A stretch of DNA of 12,708 bases from a virus (IMGVR_UViG_2737471845_000015:1-12708), one strand, 5' to 3'; counted from the first letter of the stretch, positions 3,972 to 4,560 are shown. The notes: a model not told the origin generated them from the letters alone. Program-made: numbers and translations.

Positions 3972-4137
3972 CTGGCAGGTGAAAATCAGGTTTATTTATA
4001 TATTTCAATTAATTGCAAACTGGTCTAATGACAGGGAGAAAAAAATATTGTACAGGTGAAAAGAGAAATAACTTTTAATTATCAATAAATTACCAAACAT
4101 GCTGCCGCCGCCATGGAAATGCAAAAACTAGCCTTTT
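3972..4137. other. cosB-like region: two CAGGTGAAAA direct repeats and an IHF-consensus site between cosN and the small terminase gene
   Basis: Direct repeats CAGGTGAAAA at 3976-3985 and 4053-4062. TATCAATAAATTA at 4080-4092 matches the IHF consensus WATCAANNNNTTR. The order cosN, IHF site, repeats, small terminase start mirrors lambda cosN-I1-R sites-Nu1. Confidence 0.55.
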
Positions 4138-4161
4138 TCCGCGACGCTCCCGCCCCGTGGC
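4138..4161. other. cosN-like cohesive-end site (predicted 12-nt cohesive end at 4144-4155)
   Basis: Read on the minus strand, this is ...GCGGGTCCTTCCGGTGGGGTGGCCTGCCACG GGGCGGGAGCGT CGCGGAAAAAGGCTAG.... Lambda, from memory, is ...CGGGTCCTTTCCGGTGATCCGACAGGTTACG GGGCGGCGACCT CGCGGGTTTTCGCTATT.... It is a GC-rich island in AT-rich DNA about 190 bp upstream of the Nu1-like start, the same distance as in lambda. Confidence 0.6.
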
Positions 4162-4560
4162 AGGCCACCCCACCGGAAGGACCCGCACAAATGAGAGTGA
4201 TTATCACCATTGCTGATGAATAAATTGATGAAAATCATTGAAACGCCATTCATCCATATACCAGCAGCATTCGGTGTTGCACTTCGTAACTCTGTGACTA
4301 CGGTTATAAAAGCATTGGCAACTTTTGCCACCGGCAAGTCTTCAATGGATTTCCCCTGCCGGTTTTTTATTTTCGTCGATGCATAACATTGCATTTACAT
4401 CAATAGCGGCTATTGTCATTAGTATGTTGCATCAATGCATGGGTGGTATTGGCGGTCTTCGCCGGCCGGTTCTGTGTAGCTGGACCGGTTTTTTATTTCT
4501 CACATTACAGCAGCCCCTTAGAGTGAAGGGCTGCTGTAATGCCGCAATCTTTTTTAACAT

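What the first reader, a model, noticed from the sequence alone, without database searches (positions are those of the whole stretch)
3972..4190. Lambda-like cos site inside the window, with a cosB architecture of repeats and an IHF site
The GC-rich island at 4138-4161, read on the minus strand (GGGCGGGAGCGTCGCGGAAAAAGGC), closely parallels the lambda left cohesive end (GGGCGGCGACCTCGCGGGTTTTCGC), and the preceding ...GGGTCCTTCCGGTG...ACG parallels the lambda right end. An IHF-consensus site (4080-4092) and two CAGGTGAAAA repeats (3976-3985, 4053-4062) lie between it and the Nu1-like gene, mimicking lambda cosN-I1-R sites-Nu1. This would fix the physical ends of the virion DNA and show that the window spans the junction of the two genome ends.
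Basis: partly seen in the sequence, partly recalled or inferred. Interest (0 to 1): 0.6.

Follow-up and report, generated by a model that had tools for sequence, protein, structure and literature searches.

The report
Lambda-type cos site of cdtI-like prophage
The flagged stretch is a genuine lambda-type DNA-packaging (cos) site of a cdtI-like E. coli prophage, already represented in public phage records that start exactly there, so it is correct but ordinary.

Summary
Read on the minus strand, window 4184-3959 runs cosQ (GGGTCCT), cosN (...CCACG|GGGCGGGAGCGT|CGCGG...), cosB, then terS and terL. The predicted 12-nt end (4144-4155) is exactly where the GenBank records of phages cdtI and Tritos begin, and the cdtI record ends at 4156. 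All four differences from lambda's cohesive end lie in its variable right half.

The IHF consensus (4080-4092) is invariant in 67 natural variants and sits at the same coordinate in 10 of 20 related enterobacterial loci.

The two CAGGTGAAAA copies are not significant alone (P about 0.07). They do fall at two of three fixed CACCTG/CAGGTG positions shared by relatives.

Its sequence switches together with the small-terminase recognition helix across the family.

The small terminase is DUF1441, not Nu1, but models as a winged helix-turn-helix.

The window holds only 426 bp of the right genome end; a P2-like prophage is then inserted at a 20-bp att core.

Verdict: a known element and a known kind; the cosB details are modestly new.

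The parts
4178..4184 (-). cosQ, GGGTCCT, at -29 to -23 from the top-strand nick (lambda: -30 to -24)
   Evidence: Identical 7-mer in lambda, phi80, N15 and LLS. Invariant in 67 haplotypes, although the sequence upstream of it is mosaic. In 64 of 81 relatives, homology to the window ends at 4184-4189.
4142..4157 (-). cosN. The 12-nt cohesive-end sequence GGGCGGGAGCGT is 4155..4144, with CG dinucleotides flanking both predicted nicks (4156|4155 on the minus strand, 4144|4143 on the plus strand).
   Evidence: The cdtI and Tritos records begin at 4155 and the cdtI record ends at 4156. 8/12 identical to lambda, with all differences at positions 7, 8, 9 and 11. Structured pattern matched in 0 of 200 shuffles. 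Nearly invariant in 67 haplotypes.
4123..4143 (-). Conserved cosN-proximal block, virion bp 13-33 (CGCGGAAAAAGGCTAGTTTTT). It belongs to the cosQ/cosN module.
   Evidence: Conserved across the DUF1441-TerS family. Identical in phi458 up to about bp 33, after which phi458 diverges together with its different TerS.
4096..4112 (-). Box at the lambda-R3 position, virion bp 44-60 (GGCGGCGGCAGCATGTT). Proposed primary TerS site.
   Evidence: Every family member has a CAG-, CAC- or CAT-repeat box at this coordinate. The box class switches with the TerS recognition-helix class, independently of the TerS C-terminal domain, at least 3 times. Binding itself is inferred.
4080..4092 (+). IHF consensus site (I1 equivalent), virion bp 64-76
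   Evidence: Exact WATCAANNNNTTR. Invariant in 67 haplotypes. The same consensus, in the same orientation, starts at bp 62-66 in 10 of 20 enterobacterial relatives, against 0.0135 expected.
4053..4062 (-). R2-like element TTTTCACCTG, virion bp 94-103
   Evidence: Exact copy of the R1-like element. Relatives have CACCTG or CAGGTG at about bp 97-98. However, it is altered in 12 of 36 natural haplotypes.
3976..3985 (-). R1-like element TTTTCACCTG, virion bp 171-180, 17 nt upstream of the probable terS start
   Evidence: CACCTG at bp 173-175 in all 11 loci of the HRD/NRG clade except L086. Intact in 34 of 36 haplotypes.
3432..3959 (-). terS, DUF1441-family small terminase (175 aa from the conserved MSN start; the annotated alternative start is at 3971)
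   Evidence: Pfam DUF1441, E 1.7e-44. The MSN start is conserved in 53 homologues, with GGAG 6 nt upstream. The AF2 model (pLDDT 84.6) has an N-terminal winged HTH, with MerR-type and TerS fold matches.
1324..3423 (-). terL, lambda gpA-family large terminase
   Evidence: Pfam GpA_ATPase 5e-81 and GpA_nuclease 1.8e-86. 24% identity to lambda gpA over the full length, E 5e-22.
4185..4561 (-). The remaining right arm of the lambda-like genome (non-coding, with terminator-like hairpins), up to the P2-like att core
   Evidence: Matches cdtI, phi458, phiSTEC1575-Stx2k and RM13752 only up to 4371-4543. Loci L038, L070, L063 and L010 match up to 4581.

Best explanation
Window 4184-3976 (minus strand) is the cos site of a lambda-like, cdtI-type temperate phage of E. 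coli.

Proposed mechanism, by analogy with lambda (inferred, not shown here):
[quoted passage not shown] The main site is the box at virion bp 44-60. The two TTTTCACCTG elements at bp 94-103 and 171-180 act as accessory sites.
- IHF bends the DNA at bp 64-76.
- This positions the gpA-family large terminase to nick cosN 12 bp apart, between 4156|4155 on the minus strand and 4144|4143 on the plus strand. The result is 5' cohesive ends GGGCGGGAGCGT.
- cosQ (GGGTCCT, 23-29 bp upstream) serves termination at the next cos of the concatemer.

Shown here: sequence identity with phage records that are linearised at this point; conservation and fixed spacing of cosQ, cosN, the IHF consensus and the hexamers; the terminase families; and co-switching of the TerS helix with the bp 44-60 box.
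For: 1. Record ends:
- cdtI (AB285204/NC_009514) and Tritos start at window 4155, and cdtI ends at 4156.
- LLS, a phage with a DUF1441 TerS, is annotated '5'extended single-strand cohesive site GGGCGGCGCGCT' at the homologous 12 nt.
- The linear record of Hafnia phage yong2 starts at bp 13 and ends with its 12-mer.

2. Lambda-like signature: one match in the window, none in 200 shuffles. cosQ is 7/7, the left half of the end is 6/6, the CG flanks are kept, and the differences lie only at bp 7, 8, 9 and 11. That is the pattern described for lambda-like phages in PMC4669245.

3. Terminase: gpA-family TerL directly downstream. The TerS N-terminus is a winged HTH, and hhalign aligns it to the Nu1 HTH and wing (weak).

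4. Population data: cosQ, cosN and the IHF core are invariant in 67 haplotypes, while the sequence upstream of cosQ is mosaic.

5. IHF consensus at bp 62-66 in 10 of 20 relatives vs 0.0135 expected. CACCTG/CAGGTG at about bp 55, 98 and 174: 19 observed vs 0.46 expected.

6. phi458 shares cosQ-cosN-bp33 exactly but has a different cosB and a TerS only 42% identical. The helix class and box class co-switch independently of the C-terminal domain.
Against: - No virion DNA or reads were available, so the overhang is inferred.
- I could not read the cdtI paper, so I do not know whether its record ends were measured or set by homology. The same applies to Tritos, LLS and yong2.
- TerS has no significant sequence similarity to Nu1, and TerL is only 24% identical to gpA.
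- In this window the hexamer at the R3 position is degenerate (CATGTT, not CAGGTG).
- The R2-like copy is altered in a third of natural haplotypes, and the 10-mer repeat alone has P about 0.07.
- R2 and R1 are direct repeats here, unlike lambda, where R2 is inverted relative to R1.
- In this genome a P2-like prophage sits 407 bp upstream of the nick, so a cos-to-cos unit may be too long to package. The site could therefore be intact but currently unused.
Confidence: 0.9

Rival explanations
1. The cos site is real, but cosB is of the simple N15 kind. Only the box at bp 44-60 (with IHF) matters for TerS recognition. The two TTTTCACCTG copies are not terminase sites: the downstream one would be conserved as part of the terS leader, and the upstream one would be incidental.
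For: The repeat alone has P about 0.07. The upstream copy is altered in 12 of 36 haplotypes that encode TerS 99-100% identical. The downstream copy lies 17 nt from the start codon. N15 shows that a single R site can suffice (PMC4669245, PMC9026076). The helix-box co-switching concerns the bp 44-60 box.
Against: CACCTG/CAGGTG recurs at about bp 98 and 174 in relatives whose TerS is 51-60% identical, while the surrounding sequence is not conserved. The same hexamer follows the box at bp 55 in those relatives, so the three elements are related. An IHF site between R3 and R2 is a feature of complex cosBs, not of the N15 type.
Confidence: 0.3
2. The site is an intact-looking but functionally dead cos in a prophage disabled by the inserted P2-like prophage (or otherwise defective), so in this genome it no longer defines virion ends.
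For: The P2-like prophage begins 407 bp upstream of the nick. The junction is found in none of 5,426 complete E. coli genomes. An insertion of a typical P2-like genome size, judged from the 31-40 kb record lengths, would make the cos-to-cos unit far longer than the 46-47 kb of cdtI and Tritos.
Against: terS and terL are full length and terS is 100% identical to that of phages cdtI, Tritos and HannyBb. The cos sequence equals that of those phages. The P2-like element has its own integrase and could excise. The rest of the lambda-like prophage lies outside the window, so its state is unknown.
Confidence: 0.25
3. The cos belongs to a satellite (a PICI-type island) that hijacks a helper phage's terminase, rather than to a phage.
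For: PICIs of E. coli carry cosQ and cosN nearly identical to those of lambda-like phages (PMC9026076), and an integrase lies about 900 bp away.
Against: cos is followed by terS, terL, a small DUF6148-like ORF at the position of cdtI's head-tail adaptor gene, and the start of a portal-sized ORF, colinear with cdtI. It is not followed by an rpp gene. The integrase belongs to a P2-like prophage with its own att core.
Confidence: 0.02
4. The resemblance to lambda cos is chance, or the phage packages by a headful (pac) mechanism.
For: The unstructured alignment score is only about 2.6 sd above the shuffle mean.
Against: The structured signature matched in 0 of 200 shuffles. Four independent phage records are linearised at the homologous nick positions. 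TerL is of the gpA family. cosQ and cosN are invariant amid mosaic flanks.
Confidence: 0.01

Closest known systems
Phage cdtI (AB285204 / NC_009514) and Escherichia phage Tritos (OV696610)
   Same: Essentially the same element. cos-terS is 99.3-99.9% identical, TerS is 100% identical, and both records begin at the predicted left end; the cdtI record also ends at the predicted right end.
   Different: Upstream of cos, cdtI has holin, endolysin, Rz and orf60. The window has a different right arm and then a P2-like prophage. There are a few point differences in cosB.
Bacteriophage lambda cos (cosQ-cosN-cosB: R3-I1-R2-R1) with gpNu1/gpA terminase
   Same: cosQ is 7/7 at nearly the same distance. 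ACG|GGGCGG and the CG flanks are kept. The predicted end is 12 nt. An IHF site lies between an R3-position element and downstream repeats. The terS start is at bp 185/197 against 191 in lambda. TerL is of the gpA family and TerS has an N-terminal winged HTH.
   Different: The cohesive end differs at bp 7, 8, 9 and 11. The R sequences are unrelated to lambda's. R2 and R1 are direct rather than inverted repeats. TerS belongs to a different sequence family (DUF1441, no significant similarity to Nu1), and TerL is only 24% identical.
Other DUF1441-TerS lambda-like phages (LLS, mEp460/phi458, Hafnia phage yong2, VT1-Sakai, Gifsy-2)
   Same: The same cos layout and the conserved bp 13-33 block. LLS has an annotated 12-nt 5' cohesive end. 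phi458 has cosQ-cosN identical to the window.
   Different: They have an HRQ-type recognition helix and a CATCAT/CACCAC-type box with different downstream repeats. TerS is only 35-42% identical.
N15-type simple cosB
   Same: A critical element is expected at about bp 48-60, next to cosN (PMC9026076).
   Different: N15 has a single R site and a terS start at bp 89. The window has an IHF consensus plus two further repeat elements and a 185-197 bp interval.

Membership tests
lambda-like cos sites (12-nt 5' cohesive ends, as defined in PMC4669245) | [quoted passage not shown] | tested here: met
   GGGCGGGAGCGT vs GGGCGGCGACCT: 8/12 overall and 6/6 in the left half, with differences at 7, 8, 9 and 11.
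lambda-like cos sites (12-nt 5' cohesive ends, as defined in PMC4669245) | Virion DNA physically carries 12-base 5' single-stranded extensions at this position | not testable with these tools
   Indirect only. The cdtI and Tritos records start at 4155 and cdtI ends at 4156. There is an LLS annotation and the yong2 record ends. The basis of those record ends is unknown to me.
lambda-like cos sites (12-nt 5' cohesive ends, as defined in PMC4669245) | 5'-CG-3' dinucleotides flanking both nick positions | tested here: met
   ...CCACG|GGGCGGGAGCGT|CGCGG....
lambda-like cos sites (12-nt 5' cohesive ends, as defined in PMC4669245) | The 7-bp cosQ GGGTCCT upstream of cosN | tested here: met
   At 4178-4184, which is -29 to -23 from the nick. 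Invariant in 67 haplotypes.
lambda-like cos sites (12-nt 5' cohesive ends, as defined in PMC4669245) | An IHF site (I1) within cosB, between R3 and R2 | tested here: met
   Consensus at bp 64-76. Invariant in the population and positionally conserved in 10 of 20 relatives. IHF binding itself was not tested.
lambda-like cos sites (12-nt 5' cohesive ends, as defined in PMC4669245) | A complex cosB: three related R sequences, R3-I1-R2-R1, with R2 inverted relative to R3 and R1 | tested here: inconclusive
   Three fixed hexamer positions in the clade (about bp 55, 98 and 174). In the window the R3-position hexamer is degenerate (CATGTT), and R2 and R1 are direct repeats. The orientation of R2 varies among relatives.
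lambda-type terminase | A large subunit of the gpA family (ATPase plus endonuclease domains) | tested here: met
   Pfam GpA_ATPase 5e-81 and GpA_nuclease 1.8e-86. BLASTP to lambda gpA gives E 5e-22 and 24% identity.
lambda-type terminase | A small subunit of the Nu1 sequence family | tested here: not met
   Pfam finds DUF1441 only. BLASTP to Nu1 gives E 4.6. hhalign gives probability 2%, E 0.022, limited to the HTH. The fold class of the N-terminus is nevertheless a MerR-type winged HTH.
PICI (satellite) cos with Rpp | cosQ/cosN followed by an rpp gene and no terminase genes | tested here: not met
   cos is followed by terS and terL, colinear with cdtI.
headful (pac) packaging | No fixed ends; a pac site inside or near terS; TerL of a headful-type clade | tested here: not met
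   TerL is of the gpA family, and related records are linearised at a fixed site.

The most novel reading that the evidence does not exclude
Across DUF1441-type small terminases, specificity for cos may be set by a simple pairing. Two variable residues of the recognition helix (G-x-X-R-X-T) would pair with a trinucleotide-repeat-like box at virion bp about 44-60: HRD, NRG or NRN with CAGCAGCA; DR[K/R/G] with CCACCAC; HRQ with CATCATCAT. The helix plus cosB would be exchanged as one module, independently of the TerL-binding part of TerS and of cosQ/cosN. If true, packaging specificity in a large group of lambda-like phages could be read from sequence and re-engineered. I found no description of this in the searchable literature.
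Probability: 0.4. Interest if true: 0.45.

Novelty: already known. Interest (0 to 1): 0.22.

Why it matters
For annotation, it fixes the virion ends of this cdtI-type prophage family at window 4155/4156. It also shows that the two halves of the window belong to two different phages, and it corrects the terS start.

More generally, it shows that the lambda cosQ/cosN signature is retained by phages whose terminase subunits have diverged to 24% identity (TerL) or beyond recognition (TerS). The TerS-matched part of cos begins about 34 bp inside the left end.

None of this changes the current understanding of cos packaging. The only part that might interest a specialist is the helix/box co-switching, which suggests testable specificity rules.

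Tried and rejected
- **Unstructured alignment to lambda.** A Smith-Waterman alignment of a 70-nt lambda cos segment against the window scored 28 against a null of 22.5 +/- 2.1, null maximum 30. That is too weak alone, so I replaced it with the literature-defined pattern test.
- **The 10-mer repeat as evidence on its own.** P about 0.07. The repeat finder did not list the pair.
- **Single-sequence AlphaFold model of TerS.** pLDDT 44.6, unusable; redone with 53 homologues.
- **Sequence search of TerS against the PDB.** Nothing meaningful.
- **The cdtI paper (Asakura 2007).** Not held under PMC id or DOI, so the experimental basis of the record ends is unverified.
- **Literature searches.** The 12-mer and 'Tritos' returned nothing useful.
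- **The 88-aa ORF at 4128-4394, which spans cosN.** Rejected as a gene: no Pfam match, and the sequence upstream of cosQ is mosaic among relatives.
- **PICI interpretation prompted by the nearby integrase.** Rejected.
- **Gifsy-1.** I did not verify the TerS family or cosB of Gifsy-1 itself. Only Gifsy-2 was examined, and its cosN spacing looks different.

Full report
**What is in the sequence**

On the minus strand, the window reads ...GGGTCCTTCCGGTGGGGTGGCCTGCCACG | GGGCGGGAGCGT | CGCGGAAAAAGGCT.... The 12-mer occupies 4155..4144. Below I number the minus strand from 4155 as virion bp 1, so bp n = 4156 - n.

The only slip is that the 25-mer it quoted lies at 4131-4155 rather than 4138-4161.

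Downstream on the same strand lie two genes:
- a DUF1441-family protein at 3971/3959..3432 (Pfam E 1.7e-44);
- a 699-aa protein with the GpA_ATPase and GpA_nuclease domains of lambda's large terminase.

**Is it cos?**

A megablast of 3400-4700 against 50,697 phage records found three records (cdtI twice, and Tritos) that start at window 4155 on the minus strand.
- The cdtI record also ends at 4156. Its last 30 nt and first 200 nt match the window almost perfectly.
- Tritos ends ...GGGTCCTCCCGGTGGGGGCCCCTGCCACG.
- Phage LLS, whose small terminase belongs to the same family, is annotated '5'extended single-strand cohesive site GGGCGGCGCGCT' at the homologous 12 nt.
- The linear record of Hafnia phage yong2 starts at bp 13 (CGCGGG...) and ends with its own 12-mer, so it is cut at the predicted bottom-strand nick.

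I could not read the cdtI paper. I therefore do not know whether these ends were measured or set by homology.

The comparison with lambda, phi80 and N15 shows:
- cosQ GGGTCCT is 7/7;
- ACG|GGGCGG and the CG flanks are kept;
- the four differences from lambda's end lie at bp 7, 8, 9 and 11.

This fits the description of lambda-like phages in PMC4669245: cosQ, the left half of the end and the flanking CG are conserved, while bp 7-12 vary (Gifsy-1 differs at 8, 9 and 11).

A pattern made only of those conserved features matches once in the window and in none of 200 shuffles. An unstructured alignment is only about 2.6 sd above null.

**Population evidence**

Eighty IMG/VR loci and one genome locus encode a TerS 99-100% identical to the window's. 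They give 67 distinct haplotypes of the cos region.
- cosQ is invariant and cosN nearly so, while the sequence just upstream of cosQ is mosaic. In 64 of 81 loci, homology to the window stops at 4184-4189, the edge of cosQ.
- The IHF core (bp 63-76) is invariant.
- The interval from cosN to terS is otherwise polymorphic. Two common variants fall inside the upstream TTTTCACCTG copy, at bp 98 and 100.
- That copy is altered in 12 of 36 haplotypes of the 184-bp interval. The downstream copy is altered in only 2 of 36.

**cosB**

The genome collection gave a graded series of relatives with TerS 86% to about 30% identical. Anchoring each locus on CGCGG at bp 13 shows the following.
- **A conserved block at bp 13-33.**
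- **A trinucleotide-repeat-like box at bp about 44-60**, the position of lambda R3 (bp 50-65) and N15 R3 (bp 48-60; PMC9026076).
- **An exact IHF consensus**, in one orientation, starting at bp 62-66 in 10 of 20 enterobacterial loci (0.0135 expected).
- **CACCTG/CAGGTG hexamers in the window's own clade** at about bp 55, 98 and 174 (19 observed, 0.46 expected).

At bp 55 the window has only CATGTT. The 10-mer repeat alone is not significant (P = 0.07), so its support is comparative.

Unlike in lambda, R2 and R1 are direct repeats here, and the orientation of R2 varies among relatives.

**Which element does TerS read?**

- phi458 has cosQ, cosN and bp 1-33 identical to the window. It then diverges completely, and its TerS is only 42% identical. 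The TerS-matched part of cos therefore begins at about bp 34.
- The two variable residues of the putative recognition helix (G-x-X-R-X-T) define classes that track the box: HRD, NRG and NRN with CAGCAGCA; DR[K/R/G] with CCACCAC or CTCACCAG; HRQ mostly with CATCATCAT.
- This is not one inherited event:
  - By C-terminal domain, HRD protein L100 is closest to DRK protein L099 (82%).
  - HRD protein L104 is closest to DRG protein L109 (78%).
  - The NRN proteins are closest to HRQ proteins (61-64%).
  - In each of these pairs the boxes differ in step with the helix.

I infer that the bp 44-60 box (window 4096-4112) is the primary TerS site. This is a correlation, not a binding assay.

**The proteins**

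- TerL is 24% identical to lambda gpA over its full length (E 5e-22).
- TerS shows no significant similarity to Nu1. hhalign aligns only TerS residues 14-49 to Nu1 residues 4-39, the HTH and wing, and only weakly.
- An AlphaFold model built with 53 homologues (pLDDT 84.6) gives beta, helix 15-22, helix 26-35, a beta-hairpin at 40-51 and helix 52-60, followed by long helices.
- Foldseek matches the N-terminus to MerR-type winged-HTH domains (RacA, BldC, MerR regulators, excisionases, 7lwr) with TM-score 0.55-0.71 normalised to the target, but E-values of only 0.07 or above.
- Against viral models, the best hits are small terminases, with E from 1e-8 to 7e-6.
- The conserved MSN start and a GGAG 6 nt upstream place the terS start at 3959 rather than 3971.

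**Context**

The window does not carry a normal right arm.
- Window 6854-12708 is 94-96% identical to P2-like phages (P88, vB_EcoM-569R5, Xuanwuvirus).
- The integrase at 5094-6218 and the repressor-like gene next to it belong to that element.
- Lambda-like homology runs from 4156 to 4581 in loci L038, L070, L063 and L010. Those loci then continue with TTTATGG...
- The window and the btuC-side junction of E. coli E2348/69 continue with the P2-like sequence ATAAACAC... after the same 20-mer, AAAAAGGCCGCAGAGCGGCC (4562-4581).

This is the signature of site-specific integration of a P2-like phage into a terminator hairpin of the lambda-like prophage, 407-426 bp upstream of the nick. None of 5,426 complete E. 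coli genomes has this junction.

So the window does span the end junction, but it contains only 426 bp of the right end. Whether cos can be used in this genome is uncertain.

**Verdict**

The finding is correct, and the element is the known cos of cdtI-type phages, a member of the lambda-like cos group.

The parts I could not find described are:
- the R3-position box and its co-switching with the TerS helix;
- the module boundary at about bp 34;
- the arrangement of the R-like hexamers.

They are of modest interest.

Noticed in passing
window 4562-4581 (core), 4562-12708 (element): A P2-like (P88/Xuanwuvirus-type) prophage is integrated into the lambda-like prophage 407-426 bp upstream of the cos nick. 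The 20-mer AAAAAGGCCGCAGAGCGGCC is shared by uninterrupted lambda-like relatives (L038, L070, L063, L010) and by the btuC-side junction of the same P2-like prophage in E. coli E2348/69. None of 5,426 complete E. coli genomes has this junction. The 20-mer is the stem-loop of a terminator-like hairpin on the minus strand.
   Followed up: partly
window 4597-4609 and 4616-4628: Two more exact IHF consensus matches lie 16-47 bp from the P2-like att core, between the core and the integrase. This is as expected for an attachment-site arm that uses IHF (the P2 requirement for IHF is from my own knowledge).
   Followed up: no
window 9478-9552 and 9588-9675 (+): Rfam finds an isrK Hfq-binding RNA (61.8 bits) followed by a C4 antisense RNA (76.8 bits), both inside the mechanical 371-aa ORF 8923-10038 of the P2-like element. 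That ORF has only a weak Ash-family match in residues 182-273. It is probably not one gene; the layout looks like a C4-regulated module.
   Followed up: no
window 3959 vs 3971: The terS start annotated in cdtI (equivalent to 3971, giving MELLMSN...) is probably 12 nt too far upstream. Homologues start at MSN, and GGAG lies 6 nt before the ATG at 3959.
   Followed up: yes
L122 (Halomonas MAG contig CAZZCJ010000009.1), locus 1-1500: The weakest 'relative' is a spurious hit lying next to a CRISPR-like array. The unit GTTTCTATCCGCGCGGCCCGTGCGGGCCGCGAC repeats with spacers of about 32 nt, and the short peptide match seems to fall in a spacer. This could be a spacer acquired from a DUF1441-type terS.
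   Followed up: no
L125 (Gifsy-2, NC_010393 17611-19251): Gifsy-2 has 14 nt rather than 12 between CCACG and CGCGG (GGTGGCTTCGGGCT). It also has clear R-like repeats: GTCAGCACTGAA, TTCAGTGTCGAA and TTCGACACTGAA. Either the end geometry differs or my anchor is off by an indel.
   Followed up: no
window 4128-4394 (-): A mechanical 88-aa ORF runs across cosQ and cosN. It has no family match, and its upstream part is not conserved among relatives, so it is very unlikely to be a gene.
   Followed up: partly
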